This document shows, in pieces, positions 5,358 through 30,291 of a stretch of DNA of 64,000 bases. The position numbers and the translations under genes are program-made. The stretch lies in the IMG/VR virus record IMGVR_UViG_2556921664_000001, positions 1-64,000 of that record; one strand, written 5' to 3'. The stretch's first letter is position 1. Every line of letters begins with the position of its first letter. The DNA comes from a virus (lineage: Duplodnaviria > Caudoviricetes). Under the pieces are notes generated by a model that worked only from the letters and a program-made list of their open reading frames with translations, had not been told where the DNA came from and did no database searches.

Positions 5358-5378
5358 TTATACCCTCTCCACCAGCGA

Positions 5379-6455: not shown

Positions 6456-6575
6456 TAAGAATGCATAAAACGTGGGGAGAGAAAATATTGCAGTCTTTTC
6501 ATCCTTAGTTGATTATTTCATTGCGTAGAGTTAATATACCAATGCCTATGCAGGGCTCTATAACTGGAGGTTTAT

Positions 6576-6896
6576 ATGAAAGATATAGGCAATAAAATCA
6601 GGCAATATCGCAAAGAAAACAATCTAAGCCAGGAAGCGCTTGCTGAGAAAGTCGATGTAAATAAAAACTTTATTTACAAGTTGGAATCTGATCAAAAATC
6701 ATTATCCCTGCAACTAGCTATCAAAATGGCAAATGCCCTTAATATCTCATTAGATGAATTATTTGCTGATGAGTTAACACACGAACACACCAATTATTTT
6801 TCTCTATTTGAGGATTGTAGCTATGCAGAAAAAGAGATTTTAATAAAGATTCTTCAAGAAATCAAAACTGTACTACATGGCTACACAATAAAGTAA
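6576..6896 (+). CDS. XRE-family HTH transcriptional regulator
   Basis: IGNKIRQYRKENNLSQEALAEKVDV...LE pattern. Confidence 0.9.
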   Translation: MKDIGNKIRQYRKENNLSQEALAEKVDVNKNFIYKLESDQKSLSLQLAIKMANALNISLDELFADELTHEHTNYFSLFEDCSYAEKEILIKILQEIKTVLHGYTIK

Positions 6897-6910
6897 TATA
6901 AAAAAAGAGA

Positions 6911-6965
6911 CCTGCGTAGGCTACAGCAGCACCCGCATCAGGGTGCTCGCTCTGGTCTACGCAGG
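6911..6965. terminator. Long nested hairpin, probable bidirectional terminator between convergent genes
   Basis: CCTGCGTAGGC/GTCTACGCAGG outer stem and AGCACCC/GGGTGCT inner stem; A-run on the left, T-rich on the right. Confidence 0.6.
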
Positions 6966-6985
6966 CTTTCTTATAGGATAAAATC

Positions 6986-8545: not shown

Positions 8546-8994
8546 TACACCTCTTTAATTTGGCTATATAGATATTCTACCCTTCGGAAAGGATCTTCTA
8601 TATCGCATTCTGTTGACTCTAATACAAAATCAATCCCTATGCATGTTTCCCTAACCTTATGCTTCTTATTAAGCCGCCCCAATCTGGCAGCCCTCACATA
8701 TTTTTCCTGTTGGGCCTTGGCAAACACCTCATCAGAAATAAGTCTAGGATATATACCTTCGCCAATATAGGCCCTGTTTGTGAGAATCCTGCCAATACTG
8801 CAATGCCATGAGCTAATGCCAACAGCTTCTCCGACACAGTGCAATCCATATCCTTGAAGATAAAGCTCATACATTCTTATGACCTTGGGGCCATCAACCG
8901 GATCTATTACCAGTTCCCCATTTTTGATGCAGTAACCAAATGGTATGTGTGAAATCATGCTCTCACCAGCCTTTCCCTTAATCTTAGTCCGCAT
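8545..8994 (-). CDS. Short recombinase-domain-only protein (149 aa)
   Basis: HIPFGYCIKNGELVIDPVDG...ILTNRAYIG; no catalytic domain; middle gene of a triple cassette. Confidence 0.8.
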   Translation of the reverse strand: MRTKIKGKAGESMISHIPFGYCIKNGELVIDPVDGPKVIRMYELYLQGYGLHCVGEAVGISSWHCSIGRILTNRAYIGEGIYPRLISDEVFAKAQQEKYVRAARLGRLNKKHKVRETCIGIDFVLESTECDIEDPFRRVEYLYSQIKEV

Positions 8995-10481
8995 TTCAGC
9001 TCAAATATGATTTCCTTTTTGGATAGCACAACTACCCTGTCTACTATTGCTGTAAAAATGTTATCTGAAAACTCTTTCTGTACACCTTTCTTATCACATA
9101 TGCCGATAAGTTCCCTAAGTGCTGTTTTACGGTCCACTTTACTTCTAATGTTTTCACCCACGCGAATCTTATCCCTGGCTTTACTTATTTTTATCAGCTC
9201 TGGTAATATTACCGAACTGCTGAGATTATGTTTTGCCTGCATCTCAAGAAGTAACGCCTCTTGGGAATTCAGTCTATCCAGTTCAGATTCATTGTTCTCG
9301 CAGTGCGGAATCTCAGTGTTACTCAAGTCACTAAGCATTGTTTTTAAAACCCTGTTCTTGATACATATCAGCTTATTTACCATGGTACAGAATGCGTCCT
9401 TCAAGGCTGCCTCTTTTATTGCCTTCATAGAGCACTTTGATTTATCCCTTATGTGCTCCGGGCAGGCCAGCAACGGATACTTAATGTCTCCAGTATGCTG
9501 GATTTTATGTCTGAGTACACTATTACATTCTCCGCAACATACTTTGCCGGAAAAAGCATATCTTTTCTTATACTTGGTAGGGGCTTCTTTTGCCTCTTCC
9601 CGCAGTTCGGCGAGTTTCTGCAGTCTATCAAATACTTCCTGGGAAATAATTGCATCGTGATGCTTCTCACAGTAATATGCATCCACATTATTTTTGTTCT
9701 TGTGGCGTTTCCCGTCACTGCCAATATAGGTGGACTGGAAGATTATATTTCCAGTATAAAAAATGTTGTTCTGTATCCTTTTTACTGTGGATGCGTCCCA
9801 CTTTTTTCCTCTTGGGGATGGTATTGAAAGCTCATTTAACTTTTTTGCAATGGCATAACCTCCCAGTCCATCAAGTCCACATGTAAAGATTTTCTTCACT
9901 ATTTCCGCCTTTTCATTATCCAATTTAATGACACCTTCTTCATATATGTAGCCGTAAGGCGGTGAAACCATCTTGTAAGTTCCATCCTGGAATCGTTTCT
10001 GAATTCCCCACTTTATATTCTCTGATAACGACTTTGATTCATTTTCAGCCAATGCACTTACAACTGACATATAGAGCTCTGCATCCATATCCTTTGTATT
10101 GATATTATCCTGCTCAAATTTTACATATATGCCTTTTACAGCAAGTGTCCTGACTGTTTCAAGACAATCCAATGTATTTCTGGCAAATCTGCTGATTGAC
10201 TTTGTGAGGATAAAATCTATCTTTCCTGCTATGGCATCACTAACCAACTGCTTAAAACCATCACGTCTGTTTATGGAGCGTCCGCTGATACCATCATCAG
10301 AATACACTCCTACAAAGGACCATTCCGGGTGTGCCCTAATGTACTCCTCATAGTGCTTCTTTTGGTTATCCAGGCTGGCCAACTGATCAGCGTCTGAGGT
10401 AGAAACTCTACAGTATGCAGCAACCTTCAGTTTATTCTCAGGTCTTTTATCAATAATTTTTATTGTAGGCATTGGAACCAC
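8955..10481 (-). CDS. Large serine recombinase (508 aa)
   Basis: VAAYCRVST, SRFARNTLD, PPYGY, CGEC...C Zn ribbon. Confidence 0.95.
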   Translation of the reverse strand: MVPMPTIKIIDKRPENKLKVAAYCRVSTSDADQLASLDNQKKHYEEYIRAHPEWSFVGVYSDDGISGRSINRRDGFKQLVSDAIAGKIDFILTKSISRFARNTLDCLETVRTLAVKGIYVKFEQDNINTKDMDAELYMSVVSALAENESKSLSENIKWGIQKRFQDGTYKMVSPPYGYIYEEGVIKLDNEKAEIVKKIFTCGLDGLGGYAIAKKLNELSIPSPRGKKWDASTVKRIQNNIFYTGNIIFQSTYIGSDGKRHKNKNNVDAYYCEKHHDAIISQEVFDRLQKLAELREEAKEAPTKYKKRYAFSGKVCCGECNSVLRHKIQHTGDIKYPLLACPEHIRDKSKCSMKAIKEAALKDAFCTMVNKLICIKNRVLKTMLSDLSNTEIPHCENNESELDRLNSQEALLLEMQAKHNLSSSVILPELIKISKARDKIRVGENIRSKVDRKTALRELIGICDKKGVQKEFSDNIFTAIVDRVVVLSKKEIIFELKCGLRLRERLVRA

Positions 10482-13262: not shown

Positions 13263-14837
13263 TCATAAAAGCACCTTGCGAGTCTTTGGTCCACTTTGCT
13301 GGGCAATTTTCTCCCCGCCAATAGGTTTGCCGGAAGCTGGCACAGCACGCTCTTTTCCCCACTCGCGAATTGCCTCAATTTTTTCTGGGCTGGTCTGGGA
13401 CAATGGAATTACATTATTAAATGCTGTAATTATATTCTCCGAGGTCAGTGTAAAATTCTCATTTGCAATTGTCCTATATGCCAAATCGCGTACAGTGGAC
13501 TCTAAATCAGCACCAGTGAAGCCATCACTGATTTGAACAATTTTATCTGCAAACTCCCCGCTAAAGTCCATGTCCAAGTATTTTTTCATATAGAGAGCCA
13601 ATATTTCCCTGCGCTCATCAACTGTAGGAAGATCAACAAAGAACAGCTCGTCAAAACGACCACGCCGCAAAAGCTCCGATGGAAGCATAGAAACGTCATT
13701 CGCCGTTGCAACCACAAACACTTGCTTTTTACATTCCTGAAGCCAGAACAGGAACTGCCCTACCATTCTTGTGGATACGCCGCCGTCTCCGGCACCGCCA
13801 GTGGCCCCAGACAGACCTTTTTCAATTTCATCAATCCACAAAATACAAGGAGATACATTCTCCGCAGTAGTCAGAGCATCCTTAAGCTGCTGTTCTGACT
13901 GGCCCACATAGCTTCCCTGTACTGTAGCAAAATCCAATCGATAAAGAGGAAGTCTCCAATTAGCAGATATGGATTTTGCAGATAACGATTTTCCGCACCC
14001 TGGAACCCCCACCAGCAATATGCCTCTTGGTGGTAACAGACCCTTGGCACGCAACATATCTCTTTTTTCAGGCTTCATCAATTCCTTCTTCTCATCCAAC
14101 CAGCTCTGGAGCCCTTGCAATCCGCCCACATCTTTCAAACTGTCATCCACATCGATTTTTTCCAGCCCGGATATATCGGAAAATAAGCGATTTTTTGCAT
14201 ACCTAATTTCATCCATATCAGATTTTAAAATACGTTTGTTTGCAATCAGTGCCGCAATTACGTTTTCTGCCTCGATTTTGCTTACTCCTGCCAACGCAGA
14301 GGCTGCTTCCCGAATATCATTATTGTCCCATTCTATTTGGATTTCACTGCGATAATCGTCAATATACTCCTTAATAATGGAATACATTTCATCCTCTGTA
14401 GGCAAACCGATTTTTACAATCATCCCTTGCCGCTGCAAATGATTCCATACAGCATTGTGGGTCATAACAATCACGACCCCACCTGTTTCATTAGCCAGAT
14501 TTACCAATGCCAGTAATTGCTTTGATTCGCTGTTTTCAGTACTTATATCCGGAACCTCAGTCAACACAATGGTCAAATATTGTCTGCGCTGCATCTGCTC
14601 CGTTATATAATCTATGGCACCATAGAAGGATTTGTCTTCATTGACGACCTTGTCAGTAGTGATATCATAAATTCCCCTAGAGGATGTGTGTACTAAAAAT
14701 GACAGCTGCAGTTCCTCGGCCGTATTCTTGAGGATATCCAGTGTTCGCCCATGTTCTATGGTATGAATTGCAATAAAAGGTATTCTGGCGATAGAATATC
14801 TTTTTAACAGTTCCTTGCTTTTATTGATATCACTCAC
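13263..14837 (-). CDS. Ycf46-like AAA+ ATPase (degenerate N-terminal plus active C-terminal AAA module)
   Basis: [13 protein letters not shown] Walker [10 protein letters not shown] Walker B, ATAN...[19 protein letters not shown]. Confidence 0.9.
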
Positions 14838-17295: not shown

Positions 17296-20118
17296 TCATA
17301 TATTTACAGCTTCACGCAGCTTTTCCCACACTTTAACCATTGCATACGTATCAAGACCACAGTATTTAAGCAAATACCCACGATATTTTTCCAGTTCCTC
17401 TGGAGACATGTCAGCCATAGCTAGAAATGCATTTGATGCTTCAGTGCCATTATGAATACCTTCAAGATTGTGATAATCCAGCGCAGGATCATCCGGAAAT
17501 AGTGCTGGTAACACAAGCTTGATAGAAGAACGTCCCTGCATTTCCTTGACATAATAATGCTCATTATGAAACGGCATCTCAAGGTCTTGGATATGGTCAT
17601 GGATATTCATCAAGTGTTCAGCCAAGTCAGGGAAAAGTTCCGCTAATTCCTTTACACGCCCTTGTTCGAATGATTTATGATATGCCAACGTACAACCATT
17701 CAACGTAATATCCATGCAAAGCTGCTCTGCTATCCCTCTACGTGGGTCTTCTCCAGGATATGCCAGATATTCCTTGTGTTTTAGTTCCCCTCCCTCCTGT
17801 TCAATATAGTGAAGGGAATACTGAAATACTATCTGTGCATAAGGCTTTGCATTATCATATTGTGGTACGGCCATTTGGCAAGATTCGAAATCAAGGAAAT
17901 ACAATGGATAGGATAACCCCACCAAAAATTTTTGAATCTCCTCTTTTTCAATATGCGGTGCCTTTTCAAAAAGCTCGTACTCTATCTGTATTTTCTTCAC
18001 TCCTGCCTTATATAGCTGGTTGAAATCGATTATTCCCTGATGATAATATTGGATTTTTTTCTTCCATTGTGGTGAGTTACCCGCGACATCAAATACATTA
18101 GGTTGTGGCAGGTGTCCGGTACAGTATTTCCAACAGTCGCACATTACACCATCTCTTTTGCAATGTTCATCAATGATATCTGGAGATTCGTCCTTTTGCT
18201 TCATGTACTCAGTAAATTTACCTAAATTAGCCTCCACCTCATCATGCTTGGCCTTTGCTTGTTCTGTAAAATCCACCACTGTGAAAAGATCCTGCAAATC
18301 AAGTTCTCCATGCCGCACATATTTATTGTTCAAATGCATTAAATAGACTCGATTCACCTCAAAACCACACTTTTCCACCACAAAGCACTGGAAAGCTACA
18401 TCATCATAATAATGATCCTTGATTTTCGCGGTACTCTTTACCTCATAAATATCCACTTTTTTCCCGCCAAGATGATGTAATATATCAACGCTACAGAAAA
18501 GATTGTCTACCGCAAAGGACGCCTCTGCAATGTACTCTTGCCCATTCTCCAAAAGTTCATTTGTCCGTGTAACCATGCTACCGAGATTGTTCTTATTAAA
18601 GGGCACAACAACACAACCATCAAATCGCTTTTGAGCCAGTATCCCCACCTCATTGCCAACAGCAATACGTTCTTCAGAGGCCGGCGACTCATCGATAATC
18701 TCAGGCTTATTAGTTTTTAACCACAATGCCTTAGGGCACTGTGTCGCCATTACATACTTCGACTTGGAACAAATCAATGTAGATACCTCTGTAATCATAT
18801 CGCCATATCCCAAATCTTTCATTTTTTGAATGAACTTTAAAAAATTTTTCTTAGTATTAGCTGCACCCCATTCTCTGCAAATAACTACTGTAGTATTATC
18901 TCTCAGTACTATAGGATAATCTGTTAAAAATCTTGATTTATCCTTGTCTGGTACTTCAGAAAGATTCTTTATCACGCCGTATGACCCCTGCAAATCCTTA
19001 GGAAATACTCTGCACAGTCCTTCATAATTAATATCAGGATGTTTTTCAACATAAAGGCCCACAACAGATAATACAATTCTTCCTAATGCGGTTTGTTCAC
19101 CATTAAATAGGTATCTTGAAGTTTTAGATTTGCCAGTTGGTTTATTATCATTATTTTTTTCTTTTTTAAATGATGTGCCATATTTTAGCGGCTTTGGTAG
19201 TTCATCTATGAATGAGCTGCTTACGTTGTTTACCATCGCCAGCTTATTAAATTGTTGCATATTTTCTTGTCCATACCTTGTATAAAACTGCTGACGCACA
19301 TAATTTATTACATCAGGATTTTCACCAATCAGATAATTTGAGTTTCCACTTTTCGGGACAAGGAAATAATTTAACGGGTCACAAAAACGTAGAAAATGTG
19401 CCTTGACAATATTCTTTTCTTCATCAGTCCAAATATCTGGGAGACGTCGTACATGATCTTCATTTTCTATCCAATCCGCCACCACCCCTCTAGGAAATAA
19501 TTTATCACTTAAAGCTTCTGGCAAATAGAAATCATCACTTCTATGGTTATTTTCCTTTAAACTAGCAATATGTGCCAAATACCAACCTTTCCCATTTAAA
19601 ATCCCCGTTTCTCTAGGATGTCCAAGAAATTGATTTTTGTTGGCTATCAACGCTTCTTCACTTTTTTTGCCATTATCATAGTGCATTGGATACATATTAT
19701 CATTTAATAATTTAGCAAATTCCTCTGCTGTGGGAACAATGCCCTTGTGAGCCATATTATAAATCTCATGTACCTCAAAATTGCTGGCAAACACGTAGGA
19801 GCAACCGTCAGCCATAACAGTTTTTGCAGCGCGCCTATTTTTATACGGTCTTAGCCCGCGCTGTTCCCAATTCTTATTATTTCCGCCTTCATATTTTCTT
19901 ATCAAAAATACCGCATCCGACCGGTCAATATACTCAACCAACATTTTGTGCCAAGCAATAGCGTATTCGCTGTCTATTAGTGTAGGTTTAATACATTTCT
20001 CATACAATTCAGTAACGGTTTTTACTTCTTCATATTCTGGTAATGAAATTTCAAAATCAATTATCTTCTTTTCATTATGCCTTGAAAAATAATCTTGAAT
20101 TCCTGTAAAAATTGCCAT
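17296..20118 (-). CDS. DUF2779-family nuclease-like protein with ~450 aa N-terminal extension (940 aa)
   Basis: CSKSKYVMATQCPKALWL, VDIL...YEVKST (PD-(D/E)xK), YFLDFE...FQYSLH, YCGLDT in the C-terminal half. Confidence 0.8.
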   Translation of the reverse strand: MAIFTGIQDYFSRHNEKKIIDFEISLPEYEEVKTVTELYEKCIKPTLIDSEYAIAWHKMLVEYIDRSDAVFLIRKYEGGNNKNWEQRGLRPYKNRRAAKTVMADGCSYVFASNFEVHEIYNMAHKGIVPTAEEFAKLLNDNMYPMHYDNGKKSEEALIANKNQFLGHPRETGILNGKGWYLAHIASLKENNHRSDDFYLPEALSDKLFPRGVVADWIENEDHVRRLPDIWTDEEKNIVKAHFLRFCDPLNYFLVPKSGNSNYLIGENPDVINYVRQQFYTRYGQENMQQFNKLAMVNNVSSSFIDELPKPLKYGTSFKKEKNNDNKPTGKSKTSRYLFNGEQTALGRIVLSVVGLYVEKHPDINYEGLCRVFPKDLQGSYGVIKNLSEVPDKDKSRFLTDYPIVLRDNTTVVICREWGAANTKKNFLKFIQKMKDLGYGDMITEVSTLICSKSKYVMATQCPKALWLKTNKPEIIDESPASEERIAVGNEVGILAQKRFDGCVVVPFNKNNLGSMVTRTNELLENGQEYIAEASFAVDNLFCSVDILHHLGGKKVDIYEVKSTAKIKDHYYDDVAFQCFVVEKCGFEVNRVYLMHLNNKYVRHGELDLQDLFTVVDFTEQAKAKHDEVEANLGKFTEYMKQKDESPDIIDEHCKRDGVMCDCWKYCTGHLPQPNVFDVAGNSPQWKKKIQYYHQGIIDFNQLYKAGVKKIQIEYELFEKAPHIEKEEIQKFLVGLSYPLYFLDFESCQMAVPQYDNAKPYAQIVFQYSLHYIEQEGGELKHKEYLAYPGEDPRRGIAEQLCMDITLNGCTLAYHKSFEQGRVKELAELFPDLAEHLMNIHDHIQDLEMPFHNEHYYVKEMQGRSSIKLVLPALFPDDPALDYHNLEGIHNGTEASNAFLAMADMSPEELEKYRGYLLKYCGLDTYAMVKVWEKLREAVNI

Positions 20119-20121
20119 CAG

Positions 20122-20223
20122 TCAGTTCCTCCTAAATCCATGTCCTGAAGTTGTCTGTTTTTTCGGTCCGCCCCAATTAATACAGGTTGCACATCTTAGA
20201 AAATATGTAGGATCCGGTGCCAT
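20122..20223 (-). pseudogene. 33-aa ORF missing from the supplied track; truncated paralog of the Cys-rich protein at 32415
   Basis: Translates to MAPDPTYFLRCATCINWGGPKKQTTSGHGFRRN; AAGGATGG upstream; shares CxTCxNWGG. Confidence 0.5.
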
Positions 20224-20348
20224 AAATAACCATCCTTGTAATAAATGTAATACATCTTTAATTTAAGTTTTTTGACCTCTGCATTCACTTCTATAATCCT
20301 GCTATAAGAAGGATATATATTATTTAGCCTACTTTTTTAAGCATCAAA

Positions 20349-20918
20349 TTAAAATTCACACTCAAGACCGCAATCAAGCAGTTCCTCCTCCAGTTTTCTC
20401 TTCATGATAACAACACCGGTCTTCTTCATTGGGCAGTGTTTCTCGGACATGGAATGAATTACATTGTCGGCAGTAGAAAGAACATTCTCAATTTCTTTGA
20501 CAGCCTTATTTACAATTTTATTGCAGACCGCATGTATATCAACATCGTTGAAGTCAGTGTTGTCTATTTTAAGTGGCTGCATGCTATCTTCTTGGATATT
20601 AAAAGTATAGGCAATCCCGTTCTTATATAAAACAGACTCAACATATTTAAAAGCTTCCATCACATGTTTTGATGGTACATGTTCCTTAATTTCATTCTCA
20701 GTATCAAACATAATTTTTTTGAAATGCTCATCCACCTTCTCAGCAGTTCTTTTGGCAATCTTGTTACTCAATTCTCTGGTCTCTAAATACATTTCACGAT
20801 ACCTAGCGCCTTTTCTCTTCAGCATAACAGCTTTGTAAAGCTTTTTCTTGATGTTCTTGCCCCTACGTTTAACATTTGCCATTTTATTCAACTCTCCCCT
20901 GTCCCCAAAGTAAACCAT
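20349..20918 (-). CDS. Hypothetical protein (189 aa; start likely MANVKRR)
   Basis: ORF with GGGGAG RBS, basic N-terminus. Confidence 0.6.
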   Translation of the reverse strand: MVYFGDRGELNKMANVKRRGKNIKKKLYKAVMLKRKGARYREMYLETRELSNKIAKRTAEKVDEHFKKIMFDTENEIKEHVPSKHVMEAFKYVESVLYKNGIAYTFNIQEDSMQPLKIDNTDFNDVDIHAVCNKIVNKAVKEIENVLSTADNVIHSMSEKHCPMKKTGVVIMKRKLEEELLDCGLECEF

Positions 20919-21023
20919 CCTGCATTTATAATCATTTATTACTTTCTATACACATCTTTAAAATCCTGCTGTATGGAAAAATATTATTATCCTAAACTAT
21001 TGAGGAAATGCGGCCATGCTGGT

Positions 21024-23075
21024 TTATTCTGCATATACATCAATATAAGCCTGCTGATACTCTTTTGGATAGTGAACTTTATAGTACACCATACGATATA
21101 AAAGAGCTGTATAGTCAATGGCCTGGGCTCTGGAAACCAAATATCTGATCTTTTGGCAGGAGTCAATATACCAATCTGGTATATTATGTTCTTTTAGAAT
21201 TGCCACCATATCAGGTTTTATGCCACGTCCCTTGCGTACAGCTTCCATTATTTTAACTGCCGTCATTGGTTCAATTCCCATCCCAATAAGGTATGTCATA
21301 ATATCATCACGTGTAGCTATAACCTCTTTGAAGGTACACACCCCATCCTTAAGCAGAAGTTCGGTATTATTATTCCATGCCCCGGAATCAAATGATGCCA
21401 ATGCAATGATTTTTACAAGCTCATTCATACTGCTTGGCTTTACCATGGACATAATCTGGTAAAACAGCTTGCTTAGTTGAATTCCCATTTGCCCAGATGT
21501 TCCCTTATTCTCTTTCATGACATCACCAAATGATTCTGGCTTCAAGGAACATAAACATGATAGCGTTTCAGCATCGCTAAGGGATATATCTCTAATCCGG
21601 TAATTAGTACTGTCCTCCATTTTTTTCAGAAAATCCATCTCCCTAAGTGGCAGCATATCAAGCTTTATCAGATCCCCTAATAGTGCGCGATAATCAAAAT
21701 AAGTTGTTAACCACTGATCATCAGTATCTTCGGATATATACTGAGTGGGCGTAAAACAATGAACATCCATATCCTGGGGAATCAGCATCAATGCGGCTGG
21801 ATGAACGCCTGTATCTGACGGGATATTTATTATCCCCGGTTTAAAGACGTTATTTTCCCCCAATATTTCCTTTATATATGAACGAAGCATCGGGATCTGC
21901 TGAGCAGAATAACAAATGTCAATATCCGGTATTTTTCTGCCATCAAAGCCAAGAAAAACTGCATAAGACATGTCCCAGCCGTCTTTTATCAGCGGTTCAC
22001 CGCAAATAGGACAATTTTGATCAGGTAAATCGGCTCCAAATACGTATTCATTATCAGTAGCAAATTCACTGTGTTTACATTTTGGGCAGCGCCAATGGGG
22101 CGGAAGAGGATTAATATCCGTAATCCCCAACAGATTTGCAACCAATGAGGAACCTACGGAACCGCGGGAGGTAGTACTATAACCATTCCCATGGGTTTTA
22201 TCTGCAAGCTTCCGGGAAATTAAATACAGCGACGAATAACCATTCCTGGTGATAATTGACAGTTCCTTATCAAGTCTTTCTTTCACCACCGCAGGGAGAT
22301 TTTGACCATATATCCTGTGCGCTGCTTCGTATGAAAGATTTTTTACAGTTTCTTCCGCCTCAGGCAAAACAGGCAGATGGATTCCTTCCGGTATTGGTCT
22401 TAGTCGGTCAATCATATCTGAAATAAGCTGCGGGTTATTGATCACAACATCATAAGCTGTTTTTTCTCCAAGATAACTGAAGGATTTCAACATTTCATCT
22501 GTTGTTTGTAAAACTTCTATACCTTGGTCAGCAGCCACTACGGACTTATTAATTTTTGCCGCTAACTCCACAAGTTTTATATTGGTGTCACACAAATCAT
22601 CATCTGGCTGAATTTCCAAGTAATCATAAAAGGCGGCAATTTCCAAAAGCCTTTCTTCACTTTTATGTGAGGCTATGGCCTGTATAAGCTGACCATCAAG
22701 CCCTGCAGCCCCTACGAGTAATCCTTCACGGTGTTGTTCCAAAATTTCTTTTGATATACTATGAGCCTCGTTTCCTGGCTTGGTATGTAATAATGTAACC
22801 AAGTTATACAGATTTTGAAGACCAATCTTATTTTTGGCCAAAACAATCACGTGATATACAGATAATAAATCTGCATCTTCCGTCGACAATAAAATTTCCA
22901 TGCCGTAGATTATTTTGATGTCAAGATTATCCCCCTCAACAATTTGCATAGCCTCCGGAAACGCCTTTACTGAACAGATATCAGTGATTGCCACAGCTTT
23001 CCGACCTCTCCGGGCGGCTGTACTAATATATTCTTTCACGGACATTTCATTAGCTATTTTACTTGATAATTTCAT
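21024..23075 (-). CDS. Minimal PolC-type (family C) DNA polymerase core
   Basis: AITD, SRGSVGSS, CPKC...CPICG Zn finger, KIPDIDI, KLDML, RDDIMTYL, IMEAVRKG, WYIDSCQKI; 683 aa versus ~1400 aa for PolC. Confidence 0.88.
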   Translation of the reverse strand: MKLSSKIANEMSVKEYISTAARRGRKAVAITDICSVKAFPEAMQIVEGDNLDIKIIYGMEILLSTEDADLLSVYHVIVLAKNKIGLQNLYNLVTLLHTKPGNEAHSISKEILEQHREGLLVGAAGLDGQLIQAIASHKSEERLLEIAAFYDYLEIQPDDDLCDTNIKLVELAAKINKSVVAADQGIEVLQTTDEMLKSFSYLGEKTAYDVVINNPQLISDMIDRLRPIPEGIHLPVLPEAEETVKNLSYEAAHRIYGQNLPAVVKERLDKELSIITRNGYSSLYLISRKLADKTHGNGYSTTSRGSVGSSLVANLLGITDINPLPPHWRCPKCKHSEFATDNEYVFGADLPDQNCPICGEPLIKDGWDMSYAVFLGFDGRKIPDIDICYSAQQIPMLRSYIKEILGENNVFKPGIINIPSDTGVHPAALMLIPQDMDVHCFTPTQYISEDTDDQWLTTYFDYRALLGDLIKLDMLPLREMDFLKKMEDSTNYRIRDISLSDAETLSCLCSLKPESFGDVMKENKGTSGQMGIQLSKLFYQIMSMVKPSSMNELVKIIALASFDSGAWNNNTELLLKDGVCTFKEVIATRDDIMTYLIGMGIEPMTAVKIMEAVRKGRGIKPDMVAILKEHNIPDWYIDSCQKIRYLVSRAQAIDYTALLYRMVYYKVHYPKEYQQAYIDVYAE

Positions 23076-23177
23076 AATTATTCCCCCTAAGTTTAAAACA
23101 ATAATGTATAATACTAATATACGTTGAAATTTAAATTGCGCTCCAAAATCAATCAGCCTGATACGGAGGTGTGAGTT

Positions 23178-24353
23178 TTGACAGAAGGTAACAATCTGAC
23201 AGCTACAGAAAAATTAAGAAAAGCCCGAATCAGAATAATGAACAAACAGCCTTTTTTCGCTTCCCTTATTATGCTCCTTACACCAGTTGAAGATGATTCT
23301 ATAGGAACAGCAGCGACTGATTCAAAAAACCTATTCTATGCTCCTTCTTATATAGAAAAATTGTCTATTGAGGAAGTTATTTTTGTGTATCTGCATGAGA
23401 TTCTCCACTGTGCCTTAGGACATATCTGGAGACAAAAAGATAAGGATCATAGACTTTGGAATATTGCCACTGATTATGCAATTAATGGTATGTTACATAA
23501 CGATATAAAACTAAATCATTTTCTCAAAATGCCACCAAGTCTGCTATATAAAGAAACATATTATGGTATGTCAGCGGAAGAAATATATGATTCCCTTAAG
23601 TCAGATATTGCTAGAGCTTTCGTTAGCGTTAGCGTTGGCAATGGTGATGATGGTGATGATGAGCCTCAAAACCATGTTTTATGGAAAAATGCTGATAAAA
23701 ACGAACGGATAAACTGGCAATACAATACCAAGATTGCAATTAAAAATGCAGAAAGATATGGTAAAGCACCTTCATATCTTACAGAAATAATTAAGCGGTT
23801 AAAACCACCACAAAAGGATTGGCGAACTCTATTGAATGAATTTGTCCAAGAGGAAATAAATGATTTTTCACTTATGCCGCCGGACAACCGTTTTGATGGG
23901 GATTTTTTCATTTTTTCCTTTTCCGATACAACAGAAGTGGTAAAAGACTTGCTGTTCTTTGTTGATACATCTGGTTCCATGCGAATAAATGAATTAGAGG
24001 CTTGTTATTCGGAAATAAACGGTGCCCTCCAGCAATTCAATAGGCAACTACAGGGTAAACTTGTTTTTTTTGATGCAGTTGTCCATGAACCATTATACGA
24101 TTTTGACGACATCAAAGATATCAGATCTGTATGTCCTATAGGCAGGGGCGGTACCTGTTTTTATGCTATATTTGATTTTTTAAAAGAATATAAGAATGCT
24201 CATAATCCCATTGCGGGTGTCATTATTTTAACTGATGGACAATGTGACTACGATGACATCGATGCACCAGATTTTCCTGTTCTTTGGGTATTTACTACCC
24301 ATGACAACAATCCACCCTTTGGCTTATCTACTACCATCGAAGTCAGCCCATAA
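23178..24353 (+). CDS. DUF2201-type zincin metallopeptidase fused to vWA domain
   Basis: LHEILH (HExxH), WNIATDYAIN, FVDTSGSM MIDAS, GRGGT, ILTDG; TTG start with GGAGGT RBS. Confidence 0.9.
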   Translation: MTEGNNLTATEKLRKARIRIMNKQPFFASLIMLLTPVEDDSIGTAATDSKNLFYAPSYIEKLSIEEVIFVYLHEILHCALGHIWRQKDKDHRLWNIATDYAINGMLHNDIKLNHFLKMPPSLLYKETYYGMSAEEIYDSLKSDIARAFVSVSVGNGDDGDDEPQNHVLWKNADKNERINWQYNTKIAIKNAERYGKAPSYLTEIIKRLKPPQKDWRTLLNEFVQEEINDFSLMPPDNRFDGDFFIFSFSDTTEVVKDLLFFVDTSGSMRINELEACYSEINGALQQFNRQLQGKLVFFDAVVHEPLYDFDDIKDIRSVCPIGRGGTCFYAIFDFLKEYKNAHNPIAGVIILTDGQCDYDDIDAPDFPVLWVFTTHDNNPPFGLSTTIEVSP

Positions 24354-24404
24354 CAGTTATCCTAATATGACGCATATTAATTTTGTACGAGGGAGGAACA
24401 TATA

Positions 24405-25520
24405 ATGTCTTATATGGATATGATTAGTAATGAAAATTATTCACAAATTTCCTGTAATAAATTTATCAATATCATGTCTGCCCTGTATTCCGAAGGAGAT
24501 TTTTCCAAACAACCAACCAAAATGTTATGGGGCCAGCCAGGTGTTGGTAAATCCCAGGCAGTACAACAATTTGCCAACATACTGTCAGAAAAAACCGGTA
24601 AAAAAACTAATGTAAAAACTGTTTCCTTACTGCTGATGAATCCTATTGACCTTAGAGGTATTCCAGCCAAATCGAAAAATGAACGGAACGAAGATGTGGC
24701 CAAATGGTTATCCCCGGATATATTCAAATTGGATCCCAGTGATGATGTTATCAATATCTTATTTTTGGACGAAATATCAGCGGCTCCACCATCTGTTCAG
24801 GCTGCGGCATATCAAATATGCCTTGACAAACGCATCGGCGAGCATGTTCTCCCGACCAATACTATAGTAATATGTGCCGGCAACAGGGTTTCAGACAAAG
24901 CTGTGGCATTTAAAATGCCTAAGCCCCTGTCCAATCGTCTTACTCATTTTGAAATAATTGCTGATTTAGATTCATGGCGTTCATGGGCTTACCAACACAA
25001 TATCAATGACTCAATCATTGCGTTTATTACATGGCGACCAGATTACCTTAATAAATTTGACCCCTCAAACGATGATGTGGCTTTTCCTACTCCCCGTTCC
25101 TGGGAATTAGTCAACACTTATATGCAATTTGGCTTTGAGGAAATGTTTGAATGTATAGCTGGAACCGTCGGACTGGCAACAGCCATTGAATTAAAATCAT
25201 TTATTGATCTTTCCGTAACACTACCTACTTTTAGTGATATTATTGCCAACAAAGCCGAATTACCAGCTAATAATGATCCTGCTGTAATGTATGCTATTTC
25301 TTCAATGATTACTTCAAATGTAGTGCAAAATGGCTCTACGCTTAAACTGAAAGAAAAGAATAATCTGTTTAAATATATTGGCTCCTTTAAGCATGATGAA
25401 TACATTCTCCTTACATTGCAAGATATTATAAAAAATTGCCCTGAATTTAATAAATATCTTTTAAAAAACAAAGATACCATCAAATTTATTAAGCAATTTC
25501 GCAATGATTTAACTAATTAA
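24405..25520 (+). CDS. MoxR-like AAA+ ATPase
   Basis: MLWGQPGVGKS, LFLDEISAAPPSVQ, CAGNR, PLSNRLTH, PTPRSWE. Confidence 0.9.
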   Translation: MSYMDMISNENYSQISCNKFINIMSALYSEGDFSKQPTKMLWGQPGVGKSQAVQQFANILSEKTGKKTNVKTVSLLLMNPIDLRGIPAKSKNERNEDVAKWLSPDIFKLDPSDDVINILFLDEISAAPPSVQAAAYQICLDKRIGEHVLPTNTIVICAGNRVSDKAVAFKMPKPLSNRLTHFEIIADLDSWRSWAYQHNINDSIIAFITWRPDYLNKFDPSNDDVAFPTPRSWELVNTYMQFGFEEMFECIAGTVGLATAIELKSFIDLSVTLPTFSDIIANKAELPANNDPAVMYAISSMITSNVVQNGSTLKLKEKNNLFKYIGSFKHDEYILLTLQDIIKNCPEFNKYLLKNKDTIKFIKQFRNDLTN

Positions 25521-25563: not shown

Positions 25564-26673
25564 ATGGATACAAATATTTCTGCAGAAAATTTAATTTTAG
25601 ATCACATGGCACTTAATACCATATATATCATCAGCAAAGAAGCATTGGCAAAATTCCCAGATAAATCTATAATTATCGGCGTGGACTACAAAATGGAATT
25701 TTTAACAGGGACTGAAGATTATGATTTAGTATGCTGTTATAAATTCCAAAGATATGATTATGTATATTATATTTTTTTAAATCTTACAGGTTGGAGACAC
25801 CTCCTTATAATTAACGAACCAATTAACGAAATTGGCCCCGCAAAAACATATCACAATCCTAATATTTGTAGCAAAAAAGCTGTTGAGGAAGCAAAAGAAT
25901 TACCCCGTGTTTTTTTTAATCACTTTCACCTATACTATGATATAGTCAACGATAAAATTCACTGTGAATATAATATTAACAGCTATATGTATAGAAATGA
26001 AATAAACGCTTTATTTCATTCTCTACTTACTTTTCTTGCACTTAACCCGTCAGAGCATCCAGATGTTTTACAATTTTTGCAAAATAATATTGTTGATAGA
26101 TACATAAAAAAAAGAGAAAGCATTCTATTTACCTTTAGCAAAGACAGAACGACTGTTAGCCATTTTACCTATATTGATTTTTATAATGAATCAGCTAAAC
26201 ATATATTAGTTGCAGCCGTATATATTGATCAAACTGATCAAAAATGCTATTTTTTGGGTGGGCATAAAGCAAGGTGTATTGATGATTCATTGAGGTTAAG
26301 CAATAATAATAAATACTACATTGACAATCAAAACATGCCCAATAGGAAATATTATGATTTGTCAAAAATGAATGTTGATGATAATGAATTTAGTTATTTT
26401 ATCGAAAATTTTTACCCACATAAAGCCTCAATCGCCAAAATAGACTATTACTATGATAGTGGCTTATTAATTAGGTCAACTGATGATCGTATTAAAATAA
26501 TTTTTAATACCTACAAAGAAAAGGAAGATGGTATTTTGTTCCTTTTCAAGCGTAATATAGTAATCGATGAGAAATTACAACTAAAATTTAAAAAATTACC
26601 AAAAAAAGCCAAACGCCTTGATACTGAACACTATCGAAAAGTTATTGATCGTTACTTAGCGACAATAATATAA
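25564..26673 (+). CDS. Hypothetical AT-rich protein (369 aa)
   Basis: Long ORF with GGGAG RBS; no motif recognised. Confidence 0.6.
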   Translation: MDTNISAENLILDHMALNTIYIISKEALAKFPDKSIIIGVDYKMEFLTGTEDYDLVCCYKFQRYDYVYYIFLNLTGWRHLLIINEPINEIGPAKTYHNPNICSKKAVEEAKELPRVFFNHFHLYYDIVNDKIHCEYNINSYMYRNEINALFHSLLTFLALNPSEHPDVLQFLQNNIVDRYIKKRESILFTFSKDRTTVSHFTYIDFYNESAKHILVAAVYIDQTDQKCYFLGGHKARCIDDSLRLSNNNKYYIDNQNMPNRKYYDLSKMNVDDNEFSYFIENFYPHKASIAKIDYYYDSGLLIRSTDDRIKIIFNTYKEKEDGILFLFKRNIVIDEKLQLKFKKLPKKAKRLDTEHYRKVIDRYLATII

Positions 26674-28164: not shown

Positions 28165-30291
28165 CTACATCATGCAAAAACCAATTTGATGTTTTTCAGC
28201 TGGCTCCGAACCAAAAAATTCGTTTTTAAAATCATTAATAGTAAGATTTTTAATCATTTGTCTGTCAATATTTTCAGCGGAATAAGAATTGACCAGATAT
28301 TCAGCGTGAGAAAGTACAGCAGCCTCCAACACATTGCGAACAAATCGGCCATTGCCAAAATCCTTTTTATCAGAAGCTTTTTGGAACAGTTCACGGCAAT
28401 AATCCATGCTTTCCTCATCCAGCCTGTATCCCTGCTCTTCTGCCATGCACTCAAGAATTCTGCACAACTCATGTGCATCATAGTCAGAAAAGTCCAGATG
28501 AAACGCTATACGGCTTCTTAGGCCAACATTACGTTCAATAAATGATTTCATTGGCTGTGGGTATCCTGCAAAAATAACCAGCACATTTTCCCGGCGATTT
28601 TCCATTTCCTGCACAATGGTATTTATAGCTTCATCCCCATATAGTCCCTGTCGTTCATCCACCAGAGAATATGCTTCATCAATAAATAGTATTCCCCCTT
28701 CAGCTTCATCAAATTTTTTGATTACAATAGGAGCTGTGTGCCCTACAAACTTGCCTATCAGATCAGCCCTTCCACACTCCACGAAAGCGCCGGTGGAAAG
28801 AATATTACGCTCCTTCAGTATGCCGGCCAGCAGACGTGCCACTGTGGTTTTTGCAGTACCCGGATTACCGGTAAAAACCATGTGCAGGGCAGGCTTTTTA
28901 AGTTCTATTCCTTTTTTCTTTTGGATCGCCTGTATCTGATGTACAGCCAATATGCGATCAACTAATTTTTTTACCTCCTTTAAGCCAATTAATTGCTGCA
29001 ACTGTTCATAGGAATTATTTTCTACTTTTTCCTCTATTGTTTTATCAGCCGCCTTGATTCTGCGATAAGCAGGGTAATGCTCCCATCTTATTAACTCATC
29101 AGCAGCTTTTTCGTAGGCTTCCCAGGCTTCTGTTACAGAATACGTTTTTCCGGCTGTAAAGACGTTTTTCAGTTCCTTGGCCGTGAATTTCCGTTGTCCA
29201 CGACTAATGGCCAAATAATTTATATACTTTTTCGCTTGTTTTTCCCCTCCAACCCCTTCACTTATAGTGACAAAATCAATCGCACCATTTAAGGATTCAA
29301 TAAAACATCTGGTAGCATCAAGTTCTTTCTTGGCTGGTACAACCAGAATAAACAGCGTATTATTCCTATGCTGCTTTATTTCAGATACCAGATTATCAAT
29401 ATAATCTTCATGAAATGCATGTTTAAAATGTCCGCCTTTTCCTCTTTTTGTATCCATCCCCTCTGACATATACAGTACCATGGTTGATTGCTGGGCCAAG
29501 GAAACGATAGAATTCCAAAAAGAAATTTTACTGTCGTGAGGTACAAAATCATAAAAAGAAAAGATCCTTTTACTTTTAAGCCGATTCCTTGCATAAAGAG
29601 CAGATACCAAAAGGTCAATCATTTCCTGGGCTGTTTCTTGTCTTTCAGCCTGTATTATATAGTGAACAGGATGGCCCCAAAATTCATTGCTGTTTTGAGC
29701 ATCGTATATCCTGTCCAGCTCATCCCGTAAACTTTGATGGGCCATAATATTTTCCGCCTGATGTATTGCATTATTGAGTTTTTTGGGAATGGCAGAAACT
29801 ATATTTTCTTCAATACGATATTGCTTATGAACCGTCGAGTTTTTATTTTCAAAGTACTCCATGGAAAAATAATTCAAAATGGACCAGTGTGCTCTGATCA
29901 AATCTTCTTTATATCCCATTTTCACACACTCACAAAAATCCGAGCAGGTAATTTCTCTCAAATTTGTAATAAAGATACTTCTGATTCCGGAAATTTTATT
30001 ATCAAAAATCATTTTTATCCGTTCTTCTACTTTGCTGAAATCCTCAAATTTCTGTTCCCGGTTGTGGGCCAATATCACACTGATCTTTTTAGCGTTATTA
30101 TCTATATGATATACAAAGATACTCTGCCCTTCTTCGGCAATTTCCTTCCCCATGTCCATGTTAATATCCCTGAAAGCATCCCGATTATCTTTCCTGGATG
30201 CAGTTGATGCAGACTGTTTTGCTTCTGATTCCTCACTCACAGGAATATCCGTAATTTCTTCATACTGTAAGTCAAAGTGGTATAGCAGCAT
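28165..30291 (-). CDS. SpoVK/CbbX-like AAA+ ATPase with degenerate first module (708 aa)
   Basis: HMVFTGNPGTAKTT, GGILFIDEAYSL, VIFAGY, GLRSRI, FGNGRFVRN. Confidence 0.9.
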   Translation of the reverse strand: MLLYHFDLQYEEITDIPVSEESEAKQSASTASRKDNRDAFRDINMDMGKEIAEEGQSIFVYHIDNNAKKISVILAHNREQKFEDFSKVEERIKMIFDNKISGIRSIFITNLREITCSDFCECVKMGYKEDLIRAHWSILNYFSMEYFENKNSTVHKQYRIEENIVSAIPKKLNNAIHQAENIMAHQSLRDELDRIYDAQNSNEFWGHPVHYIIQAERQETAQEMIDLLVSALYARNRLKSKRIFSFYDFVPHDSKISFWNSIVSLAQQSTMVLYMSEGMDTKRGKGGHFKHAFHEDYIDNLVSEIKQHRNNTLFILVVPAKKELDATRCFIESLNGAIDFVTISEGVGGEKQAKKYINYLAISRGQRKFTAKELKNVFTAGKTYSVTEAWEAYEKAADELIRWEHYPAYRRIKAADKTIEEKVENNSYEQLQQLIGLKEVKKLVDRILAVHQIQAIQKKKGIELKKPALHMVFTGNPGTAKTTVARLLAGILKERNILSTGAFVECGRADLIGKFVGHTAPIVIKKFDEAEGGILFIDEAYSLVDERQGLYGDEAINTIVQEMENRRENVLVIFAGYPQPMKSFIERNVGLRSRIAFHLDFSDYDAHELCRILECMAEEQGYRLDEESMDYCRELFQKASDKKDFGNGRFVRNVLEAAVLSHAEYLVNSYSAENIDRQMIKNLTINDFKNEFFGSEPAEKHQIGFCMM

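What the first reader, a model, noticed from the sequence alone, without database searches (positions are those of the whole stretch)
21024..23075. Minimal PolC: catalytic palm kept; proofreading, thumb and duplex-binding parts removed
Seen, against recalled PolC sequences: the N-terminal and OB domains are absent and the exonuclease insert is cleanly excised (YGMEILL...YHVIVLAKN). PHP metal ligands are lost (AITDI, no HxH, no NVHY). The thumb segment is shortened (GIINIPSDTGVHP) and the C-terminal HhH/clamp region is absent. The GS motif (SRGSVGSS), Zn finger and all three catalytic Asp (PDIDI, KLDM) are intact. The F[PN]K[AS]HxxxY motif reads VSRAQAIDY. Knowledge: the family C palm is Pol-beta-like, and that His is the reported rNTP steric gate in DnaE. 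Inference: a repurposed non-replicative nucleotidyltransferase (distributive, template-independent or rNTP-using) in a conflict island, rather than random decay.
Basis: partly seen in the sequence, partly recalled or inferred. Interest (0 to 1): 0.78.

Follow-up and report, generated by a model that had tools for sequence, protein, structure and literature searches.

The report
Stripped-down PolC paralog in prophage cargo
This prophage gene is a real, selected, heavily cut-down copy of the bacterial replicative DNA polymerase PolC, the smallest known member of an undescribed clade of mobile-element PolC copies, and its altered nucleotide pocket and catalytically dead sister make a non-replicative, possibly non-catalytic role more likely than a new polymerase activity.

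Summary
The missing exonuclease is not special to this gene: the host's own full-length PolCs also lack it, as published for Clostridia and Negativicutes.

The gene is the most reduced member of one clade of N- and C-terminally truncated PolC paralogs in Selenomonadaceae. In 12 of the 15 other loci examined, these paralogs sit in the same gene row as a WYL regulator, usually at its end, in defence-type islands or prophage cargo. This copy has no WYL gene. It heads a row with a 189-aa orphan protein and a 940-aa Cas4-like (DUF2779) nuclease. Four cargo genes have paralogs around a second polC copy elsewhere in the genome.

It is not decaying: dN/dS is 0.36 against its only close relative. Catalysis is doubtful:
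- 3 of 4 pocket residues strictly conserved in PolC are changed.
- The steric-gate His is Gln, and the same change in E. coli dnaE fails to complement.
- Its sister has lost all three catalytic Asp.
- 6 of 22 clade representatives carry triad lesions.

The function is untested. The scan has noted related PolC-relic/WYL/nuclease cassettes before on other DNA.

The parts
21024..23075 (-). Mini-PolC gene (683 aa, P0001): truncated PHP, palm with GS motif, 4-Cys Zn finger and Asp triad, stump of the thumb, fingers. No N-terminal, OB, exonuclease or HhH/clamp parts.
22974..22991 (-). AITDIC (residues 29-34): degenerate PHP motif in which the DH His reads Ile. The HxH strand upstream is missing because the protein starts after it.
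22146..22169 (-). SRGSVGSS GS motif (residues 303-310), intact.
21999..22097 (-). Four-Cys zinc finger (C330, C333, C355, C358). It is kept in every PolC-derived protein examined that spans this region, including dead fragments.
21912..21932 (-). IPDIDIC: catalytic D384 and D386.
21798..21836 (-). GIINIPSDTGVHP: thumb remnant, 11 residues where PolC has 47.
21648..21668 (-). IKLDMLP: third catalytic Asp, D473.
21111..21143 (-). YLVSRAQAIDY: altered nucleotide-pocket motif. The positions matching E. faecium F1276, H1280 and Y1284 read V647, Q651 and Y655. H1185 corresponds to F562 (21375-21398).
23076..23177 (.). Divergent intergenic region: ribosome-binding site GGGGG (23083-23087) and a promoter-like TTTAAA-16-TATTAT (23135-23108, minus strand) for mini-PolC. 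The DUF2201 gene starts at 23178 on the plus strand.
   Evidence: consensus match only
20349..20918 (-). 189-aa helical orphan protein directly downstream. It keeps the same position in the only other mini-PolC locus (L012, 99.5% aa identity).
17296..20118 (-). 940-aa protein with a Cas4-like/DUF2779 PD-(D/E)xK C-terminal half. It is the third gene of the conserved trio (94.5% identity to the L012 copy). A 503-aa relative (64% identity) lies in the island of truncated PolC P0007.
23178..25520 (+). DUF2201 (metallopeptidase-vWA) and MoxR-like AAA pair, divergent from mini-PolC. They are paralogs (28% and 29% identity) of the pair upstream of polC-2 in the same genome.
25564..26673 (+). 369-aa protein (28.8% GC). 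Its 41%-identical homolog is the divergent neighbour of the mini-PolC gene in L012.
28165..30291 (-). 708-aa AAA + AAA_lid_6 ATPase. The family recurs beside truncated PolCs (L018, L021, L036) and beside polC-2 (39% identity).

Best explanation
The gene encodes the most reduced known member of a clade of mobile-element-borne PolC-core paralogs. The clade arose from the exonuclease-less PolC of Selenomonadaceae, lost the N-terminal/OB and HhH/clamp regions, and evolves several times faster than the replicase.

This copy sits in the accessory region of a prophage, between the lysis genes and the integrases. It is maintained by purifying selection and is not a replicase.

Inferred mechanism: it works as a non-processive DNA-end or primer-template binding subunit, with polymerase chemistry weakened or dispensable. 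It would be coupled to the two genes that travel with it, the 189-aa protein and the Cas4-like DUF2779 nuclease, and perhaps to the nearby MoxR/vWA and AAA-lid_6 ATPases. The whole would be a conflict module against phages or plasmids, or for superinfection exclusion.

Shown: identity, architecture, clade membership, selection, gene linkage and prophage position. Inferred: DNA binding, impaired catalysis, cooperation with the nuclease and a defence role.
For: Identity and fold:
- PolC NCBIfam model, 656.6 bits.
- AF2 model with pLDDT 84.6 and pTM 0.81. Foldseek best match is 3F2B, TM 0.87.

Not the replicase:
- The genome has two full-length PolCs and a DnaE1.
- The gene is 39.8% GC against 43.3% for the genome.
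- No copy was found in 5 same-genus genomes.

Clade:
- Truncated paralogs form one clade nested in Selenomonadaceae PolC, with support 98-99 in both FastTree and IQ-TREE PMSF trees.
- The path from the clade crown to P0001 is about 1.16 substitutions per site, against about 0.33 for other members.

Selection:
- dN/dS is 0.36 over 683 codons against P0002. Sd is 66.5 and Nd is 92.5. A chi-square against neutrality, calculated by hand from these numbers, is about 38.
- The palm segment has dN/dS 0.18.

Linkage:
- The trio mini-PolC, 189-aa protein and DUF2779 nuclease, plus the divergent 369-aa gene, is conserved in L012.
- Mini-PolC, DUF2201, MoxR and the AAA-lid_6 ATPase all have paralogs in the cassette around polC-2, which also holds a PD-(D/E)xK nuclease.

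Family context: WYL-containing gene rows beside GmrSD, type I R-M, NACHT, Mrr, serine recombinases and prophage ends.

Position in the prophage: structural and terminase genes at 33.5-52 kb, replication genes at 57-64 kb, and three serine recombinases at 3-10.5 kb.

Catalysis doubtful:
- 176 of 289 positions that are at least 97% conserved in full-length PolCs are kept; in the fingers only 39 of 82.
- Pocket residues H1185, F1276 and H1280 read F, V and Q.
- E. coli dnaE H760Q does not complement.
- The sister P0009 has the triad as E, E, S and shares the ITDIC and SRAQ changes.
- 6 of 22 representatives have triad lesions.
Against: - The Asp triad, GS motif and Zn finger are intact in both known copies. 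The palm is the most constrained segment. Residual or altered nucleotidyl transfer is therefore not excluded.
- Most clade members keep a full set of polymerase motifs.
- Loss of the thumb and the HhH domain should also weaken DNA binding.
- There is no WYL regulator or other cassette companion in this locus (HMM best E 0.07). Transfer of function from the wider family is therefore indirect.
- The 105-nt and 230-nt gaps between the three genes leave co-transcription unproven.
- Only two copies of this form are known.
- No PADLOC model matches the protein.
- The defence context was not tested against matched control loci.
- There is no expression or phenotype evidence.
Confidence: 0.5

Rival explanations
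1. One reading: an active, repurposed nucleotidyltransferase. It would be distributive, primer-extending or template-independent, possibly incorporating rNTPs because the steric-gate His is Gln. Its product or activity would be the effector or signal of the island.
For: - The triad D384/D386/D473, SRGSVGSS and the Zn finger are intact in both copies.
- The palm segment has the lowest dN/dS, 0.18.
- H760 is the proposed steric gate of Pol III alpha.
- Many clade members keep the SDDD and FPRHY motifs.
Against: - E. coli H760Q, F and S variants fail to complement and are undetectable.
- 3 of 4 pocket aromatics strictly conserved in PolC are changed.
- 43 of 82 invariant fingers positions are lost.
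- The thumb is nearly gone.
- The sister that shares the Gln and Ser changes is catalytically dead.
- Triad loss recurs independently in the clade.
Confidence: 0.2
2. A decoy or guard: a PolC look-alike that is bound by a phage factor aimed at the host replicase, or that titrates a replisome partner, and thereby triggers or blocks something. Polymerase chemistry would be irrelevant.
For: - Fast evolution and repeated loss of catalytic residues with intact ORFs.
- Moderate dN/dS of 0.36, with the gene diverging faster than its neighbours: 92% nt identity against 97% and 99.8%.
- Location in prophage cargo and defence-type islands.
Against: - Only 41-42% identity to the host PolCs, and 113 of 289 invariant positions are changed or deleted. 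It is a poor mimic.
- The regions that engage the clamp (C-terminus) are absent.
- No binding partner was identified.
Confidence: 0.15
3. An accessory repair or translesion-type polymerase module, functionally analogous to ImuA-ImuB-DnaE2. It would be induced by DNA damage, as suggested for relatives by their ssDNA-sensing-type WYL regulators.
For: - 12 of the 15 other loci examined have a WYL-WCX gene in the same gene row.
- CapW-type WYL proteins sense ssDNA (PMC11662680, abstract).
- DnaE2 likewise lacks proofreading and has an inactive PHP domain.
Against: - This locus has no WYL gene and no imuA, imuB or Y-family gene.
- The NCBIfam error-prone model scores 67.5 bits against a cutoff of 939.
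- Catalytically dead members exist.
- The pocket is degraded in this copy.
- The gene sits on a prophage beside nuclease and ATPase genes.
Confidence: 0.08
4. A functionless relic of a decayed cassette that is drifting towards loss.
For: - It is the most reduced member, with internal deletions in PHP and thumb.
- It has lost its WYL context.
- It is very rare, with two loci known.
Against: - The ORF is intact at 683 and 684 aa in two copies separated by dS 0.167, with dN/dS 0.36, far from neutrality.
- It has a good ribosome-binding site.
- The AF2 fold is confident and compact.
Confidence: 0.07

Closest known systems
PolC, the replicative C-family DNA polymerase III alpha of Bacillota; specifically the exonuclease-less PolC form of Clostridia/Negativicutes (Timinskas et al. 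2014, PMC3919608); structures 3F2B and 9QPC
   Same: - Same fold (TM 0.87 to 3F2B).
- PHP-palm-thumb-fingers order.
- GS motif, 4-Cys Zn finger and Asp triad.
- No DnaQ insert, as in the host's own PolCs.
- It branches inside Selenomonadaceae PolC.
   Different: - No N-terminal domains, OB, or HhH/clamp-binding C-terminus.
- PHP site retains 3 of 9 ligands and has two internal deletions.
- Thumb of 11 residues instead of 47.
- 3 of 4 strictly conserved pocket aromatics are changed.
- It scores below the NCBIfam PolC cutoff.
- It is encoded in prophage cargo alongside two bona fide PolCs elsewhere in the genome.
WYL-linked truncated PolC-core cassettes. No description was found in the searchable literature. 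They are defined here from 15 further loci (the window and L012 stand apart), and related cassettes were noted earlier by this scan in other gut and rumen Bacillota.
   Same: - Same clade (support 98-99).
- Same start at the PHP domain and same loss of the HhH region.
- Same kind of genomic setting: islands with restriction and NTPase genes, and prophage ends.
- Recurring AAA-lid_6 ATPase and PD-(D/E)xK nuclease neighbours.
   Different: - No WYL, HD or F3 companion genes in this locus.
- The gene is first rather than last in its row.
- Extra PHP and thumb deletions.
- New partners: the 189-aa orphan and a DUF2779 fusion nuclease.
DnaE2 (ImuC) of the ImuA-ImuB-DnaE2 mutasome
   Same: A non-essential extra C-family paralog without proofreading, with an inactive PHP site, thought to depend on partner proteins.
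   Different: - DnaE lineage, not PolC.
- It keeps the full active site, thumb and HhH.
- LexA/SOS context with imuA and imuB, none of which is here.
ImuB and other catalytically inactive polymerase paralogs used as scaffolds
   Same: A polymerase fold retained while catalytic residues become dispensable, as seen in this clade (6 of 22 with triad lesions).
   Different: - Y-family fold.
- This particular copy still has its triad.
- No clamp-binding motif region.

Membership tests
PolC-type DNA polymerase III (replicative) | Score at or above the NCBIfam equivalog cutoff (NF001688, 873 bits; TIGR01405, 1043 bits) | tested here: not met
   656.6 and 604.4 bits
PolC-type DNA polymerase III (replicative) | N-terminal domains I/II and OB domain | tested here: not met
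   31 residues precede the ITD motif, against 403 in host PolC. No upstream start codon is possible.
PolC-type DNA polymerase III (replicative) | DnaQ-type exonuclease inserted in the PHP domain | tested here: not met
   The slot is 14 residues. The host PolCs P0121 and P0122 have the same 14-residue slot, so this feature does not discriminate within this lineage (PMC3919608).
PolC-type DNA polymerase III (replicative) | PHP active-site signature HHDHEH[C/H]DH (PMC12926913) | tested here: not met
   --DIEHG--, 3 of 9 kept
PolC-type DNA polymerase III (replicative) | Palm: GS motif, three catalytic Asp, 4-Cys Zn finger | tested here: met
   SRGSVGSS, D384, D386, D473 and CCCC
PolC-type DNA polymerase III (replicative) | Four pocket aromatics strictly conserved in PolC (E. 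faecium H1185, F1276, H1280, Y1284) | tested here: not met
   F562, V647, Q651, Y655 by alignment to 9QPC chain A, whose chain index is the native number plus 22
PolC-type DNA polymerase III (replicative) | Full thumb and C-terminal HhH duplex-binding/clamp-binding region | tested here: not met
   Thumb 11 against 47 residues. C-terminal tail 13 against 151 residues. No HHH_6 Pfam hit.
PolC-type DNA polymerase III (replicative) | Overall C-family polymerase fold | tested here: met
   Foldseek 3f2b_A, E 7e-62, TMq 0.87
PolC-type DNA polymerase III (replicative) | DNA polymerase activity | not testable with these tools
   Needs biochemistry.
Truncated PolC-core paralogs of WYL-led cassettes (defined here) | Membership of the truncated clade in a PolC tree | tested here: met
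   The clade has support 98-99 in two methods. P0001 and P0002 are sister to P0009.
Truncated PolC-core paralogs of WYL-led cassettes (defined here) | Protein starts at the PHP domain and lacks the HhH C-terminus | tested here: met
Truncated PolC-core paralogs of WYL-led cassettes (defined here) | WYL-WCX regulator in the same gene row | tested here: not met
   An HMM built from 11 cassette WYL proteins scores best E 0.07 in the window, but finds 4 strong hits elsewhere in the genome.
Truncated PolC-core paralogs of WYL-led cassettes (defined here) | Companion families F3 (about 290 aa) and F4 (HD) | tested here: not met
   No hit in the window
DnaE2 / ImuC error-prone polymerase | NCBIfam NF004225 at or above 939 bits; imuA and imuB neighbours | tested here: not met
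   67.5 bits. No such neighbours.
Catalogued anti-phage defence systems (PADLOC-DB 2.0) | A match of the protein to any system model | tested here: not met
   0 families for P0001. Neighbours give only weak or partial hits (Cas4 1e-3, IetA-like AAA).

The most novel reading that the evidence does not exclude
PolC-core paralogs, including this minimal one, are the hallmark subunit of an undescribed class of mobile anti-phage or anti-plasmid systems of gut and rumen Bacillota. In these systems the replicase fold has been taken over as a sensor or blocker of replicating foreign DNA, with or without residual synthesis. It hands the DNA to PD-(D/E)xK nucleases under the control of AAA+ remodellers and, usually, ssDNA-sensing WYL regulators. 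This prophage would carry a stripped, regulator-less version for superinfection exclusion.
Probability: 0.3. Interest if true: 0.8.

Novelty: new variant of a known kind. Interest (0 to 1): 0.55.

Why it matters
C-family polymerases are regarded as dedicated replicases, or in the case of DnaE2 as mutases. The two published censuses read here (2013 and 2026) do not describe truncated PolC paralogs.

This work shows a monophyletic, fast-evolving clade of such paralogs. It is linked to WYL regulators, nucleases and AAA+ ATPases on mobile DNA, and catalytic residues have been lost repeatedly. That points to a second life for the replicase fold outside replication.

This gene marks the smallest PolC core that selection still maintains: a partial PHP domain, palm, Zn finger and fingers. 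It is a compact construct for asking which parts of PolC are needed for folding, DNA binding and chemistry. If the conflict role holds, it would add a new protein class to phage-defence biology in rumen and gut anaerobes.

Tried and rejected
- The 189-aa protein has no relatives in viral contigs or genome contigs. In the 5.8-billion-protein set it has only its own cluster and one 52%-identical protein. The ESM Atlas gave only TM of about 0.4 or lower, to helical proteins.
- Atlas structure search on the N-terminal half of the 940-aa protein gave only weak resemblance to HSDR_N-type domains, TM 0.35-0.45, which is a lead only.
- Phage records (INPHARED) and IMG/VR hold nothing closer than about 35-38% identity, so this is not a common phage gene.
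- The phage replication polymerase idea was rejected. The gene lies between the lysis and integrase modules rather than in the replication module, it lacks all processivity parts, and its relatives are chromosomal island genes.
- Recent deletion derivative of the host polC: rejected. Identity is only 41-42%, and the gene belongs to a separate old clade.
- A repeated intergenic motif after the polC and 189-aa genes was not supported by a pattern search, which found one match.
- My first reading of a third PolC in L025 was wrong: that gene is DnaE1.
- Literature searches for WYL plus PolC or DNA polymerase III in a defence setting found no description of these cassettes. The library is incomplete.
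Full report
**1. What is there**

The minus-strand ORF at 21024-23075 encodes 683 aa (P0001). It starts at the first start codon after an in-frame stop, 8 nt behind a GGGGG ribosome-binding site.
- Pfam finds PHP, DNA_pol3_alpha and finger domains.
- The NCBIfam PolC equivalog scores 656.6 bits, below its 873-bit cutoff.
- PADLOC has no match.
- An AlphaFold2 model is confident (pLDDT 84.6, pTM 0.81). Its best structural match is G. kaustophilus PolC 3F2B (TM 0.87 normalised to the query).

**2. Check of the listed features**

I compared the protein with the host's own PolC (P0121) and 120 relatives. Every feature holds:
- The protein begins 31 residues before the ITD motif (403 in PolC). The N-terminal domains, the OB domain and the HxH strand of PHP are therefore absent.
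- The PHP signature is --DIEHG-- against HHDHEHCDH, the motif used to call PHP sites active in PMC12926913. Two further internal PHP deletions of 19 and 32 aa are present.
- The thumb segment is 11 residues instead of 47.
- Only 13 residues follow KVHYP, instead of 151.
- Intact are SRGSVGSS, the four Zn-finger Cys, D384/D386 and D473.
- The fingers motif reads YLVSRAQAIDY.

**3. The exonuclease is not a deletion in this gene**

The genome (2.68 Mb) belongs to the Selenomonadaceae, judging from the names attached to the nearest PolC homologs. It has two full-length PolCs of 1274 and 1272 aa that also lack the DnaQ insert, plus a DnaE1. In the 121 family genomes searched, 119 gave a PolC match, and the listed full-length frames are about 1250-1350 aa. 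Exonuclease-less PolC in Clostridia and Negativicutes was reported in 2014 (PMC3919608).

**4. A clade of truncated paralogs**

The protein database holds one close relative, P0002 (684 aa, 87% identity). It also holds many 830-960-aa proteins that start at or just before the PHP domain and lack the HhH region.
- In a FastTree tree of 122 sequences and an IQ-TREE PMSF tree of 34, these proteins form one clade nested in Selenomonadaceae PolC (support 98-99).
- 961-aa forms that keep the OB domain are the sister group to all the shorter truncated forms.
- P0001 and P0002 are sister to P0009 inside an 8-member fast-evolving subclade. The sister relation is backed by rare shared changes (ITDIC, SRAQ).
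- The path from the clade crown to P0001 is about 1.16 substitutions per site, against about 0.33 for other members.
- In the 50%-identity library, P0001 is its own cluster representative. Other clusters across Bacillota show similar cores of 742-768 aa (P0170, P0142, P0272), so the architecture recurs.
- The near-complete loss of the thumb is seen only in P0001 and P0002. P0142 has a partial loss (29 residues).

**5. Selection**

Against the P0002 gene (locus L012), dN/dS is 0.36 (dS 0.167, 683 codons), and the palm segment has the lowest value, 0.18. My hand calculation from those counts gives a chi-square of about 38 against neutrality. The gene is therefore maintained, although far less strictly than a replicase would be. 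Divergence is mosaic. The adjacent 189-aa gene is 99.8% identical in nucleotides and the nuclease gene 96.8%, against 92.2% for mini-PolC.

**6. Is it still a polymerase?**

The triad and GS motif argue that it may be. Several points argue against:
- Of 289 positions that are at least 97% conserved in full-length family PolCs, P0001 keeps 176. In the fingers it keeps only 39 of 82.
- The four aromatic residues that line the incoming-nucleotide site are called strictly conserved in PolC (E. faecium H1185, F1276, H1280, Y1284; PMC12592400). By alignment to 9QPC they correspond to F562, V647, Q651 and Y655.
- The His is the proposed steric gate (E. coli H760). The very substitution H760Q failed to complement dnaE486ts, and the protein was not detectable (PMC8485763).
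- The sister P0009 shares the Gln and Ser changes and has lost all three Asp and the GS serine. Six of 22 clade representatives carry triad lesions on separate branches.
- Tandem PolC-derived fragments of 467-523 aa are all dead but keep the Zn finger.

My inference is that catalysis is dispensable in at least part of the clade. In this copy it is weakened or altered, but it has not been shown to be absent.

**7. Context of relatives**

I inspected 15 loci besides the window and L012. In 12 of them a WYL-WCX gene lies in the same gene row as the truncated PolC. In most, the PolC is the last gene of a row led by that regulator.
- The row often also holds an HD protein, a roughly 290-aa family (F3), other unknowns, and sometimes extra dead PolC fragments.
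- The same pairing occurs with the unrelated minimal cores P0170 and P0272. P0272 sits at a prophage end.
- Neighbours include GmrSD, type I R-M, NACHT, Mrr, serine recombinases and AAA-lid_6 ATPases.
- I ran no matched control for this enrichment. As a rough background, the WYL profile finds only 4 genes in the 2.68-Mb host genome.

**8. Context of this copy**

The window is a prophage read on the minus strand:
- replication genes at 57-64 kb;
- terminase, portal, capsid and tail genes at 34-52 kb;
- a long low-GC accessory block at 11-33 kb;
- three large serine recombinases at 3-10.5 kb.

Mini-PolC (39.8% GC; genome 43.3%) heads a minus-strand row. It is followed by the 189-aa orphan and the 940-aa DUF2779/Cas4-like nuclease. 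The same trio, and the divergent 369-aa gene, are conserved in L012. No WYL, HD or F3 gene is present.

Mini-PolC, the divergent DUF2201-MoxR pair and the 708-aa AAA-lid_6 ATPase all have paralogs in another part of the genome (42%, 28%, 29% and 39% identity). That region is a chromosomal cassette that surrounds the second full-length polC and lies just upstream of dnaE. It also holds three WYL genes, an HD protein, a PDDEXK_4 nuclease and pentapeptide-repeat proteins. The parts list therefore recurs even though the regulator is missing here.

**9. Reading**

- Shown: a selected, non-replicative, extremely reduced PolC-core paralog on a prophage. It belongs to an undescribed clade tied to WYL regulators, nucleases and AAA+ ATPases.
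- Inferred: it acts as a DNA-end or primer-template binding or scaffold subunit with weak or no synthesis, coupled to the adjacent nuclease in a conflict module.

Published censuses (PMC3919608, PMC12926913) and my literature searches do not describe these paralogs. Earlier notes of this scan report related PolC-relic/WYL/nuclease cassettes in other Bacillota. I treated those notes as leads and re-derived the association independently on Selenomonadaceae loci.

**10. Limits**

- Only two copies of this exact form exist in the collections searched.
- The gene families F2, F3, F4 and so on are my own BLAST clusters.
- Co-transcription, protein contacts, expression and any phenotype are untested.

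Noticed in passing
Same genome outside the window: contig C1 155-177 kb (loci L040, L041, L010): A second full-length exonuclease-less polC (P0122, 78% identical to P0121) sits inside a WYL/DUF2201-MoxR/HD/PDDEXK_4/AAA-lid_6/pentapeptide-repeat cassette immediately upstream of dnaE. In a same-genus genome (L036) its ortholog is split into 992 + 276 aa. The 'second replicase' may be a cassette component rather than a replicative copy.
   Followed up: partly
L024/L031, L025, L032, L033: PolC-derived fragments of 467-523 aa (palm and fingers only, catalytic Asp lost) stand in tandem before the truncated PolC genes. All keep the four Zn-finger cysteines.
   Followed up: partly
L025:12922-15090: The gene after the truncated-PolC cassette is DnaE1 (69% identical to the host dnaE). 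The cassette therefore lies directly upstream of dnaE in this metagenomic contig, as the polC-2 cassette does in the window's genome.
   Followed up: partly
window 20122-20223 (-): A 33-aa ORF (MAPDPTYFLRCATCINWGG...) ends 3 nt before the ATG of the 940-aa nuclease gene. Another reader noted paralogous CxTCxNWGG ORFs at both ends of the block.
   Followed up: no
window 17296-23075 against L012: Mosaic divergence between the two known loci. Nucleotide identity is 99.8% for the 189-aa gene, 96.8% for the nuclease gene, 92.2% for mini-PolC and 59% for the 369-aa gene. This suggests recombination within the module.
   Followed up: partly
window 3010-10481 (-): Three large serine recombinase genes (622, 519 and 508 aa) lie close together at the prophage end, with an AAA_25/KaiC-like ATPase (5379-6455) among them.
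   Followed up: no
window 13263-14837 (-): A 524-aa AAA ATPase resembles IetA/IteA (PADLOC E 4e-32) but scores far below the NCBIfam cutoff (82 against 510 bits). No IetS-like partner was recognised, so it is not a complete known system.
   Followed up: no
window 25564-26673 (+): This 369-aa ORF has very low GC (28.8%), no family match, and a 41%-identical homolog next to the other mini-PolC locus.
   Followed up: partly
L038:5866-10307: In an unrelated lineage, a 238-aa DnaB_C-only protein, two unknowns and a 768-aa PolC core with a complete motif set precede a WYL gene, next to restriction-type genes. This is another replisome-derived cassette.
   Followed up: no
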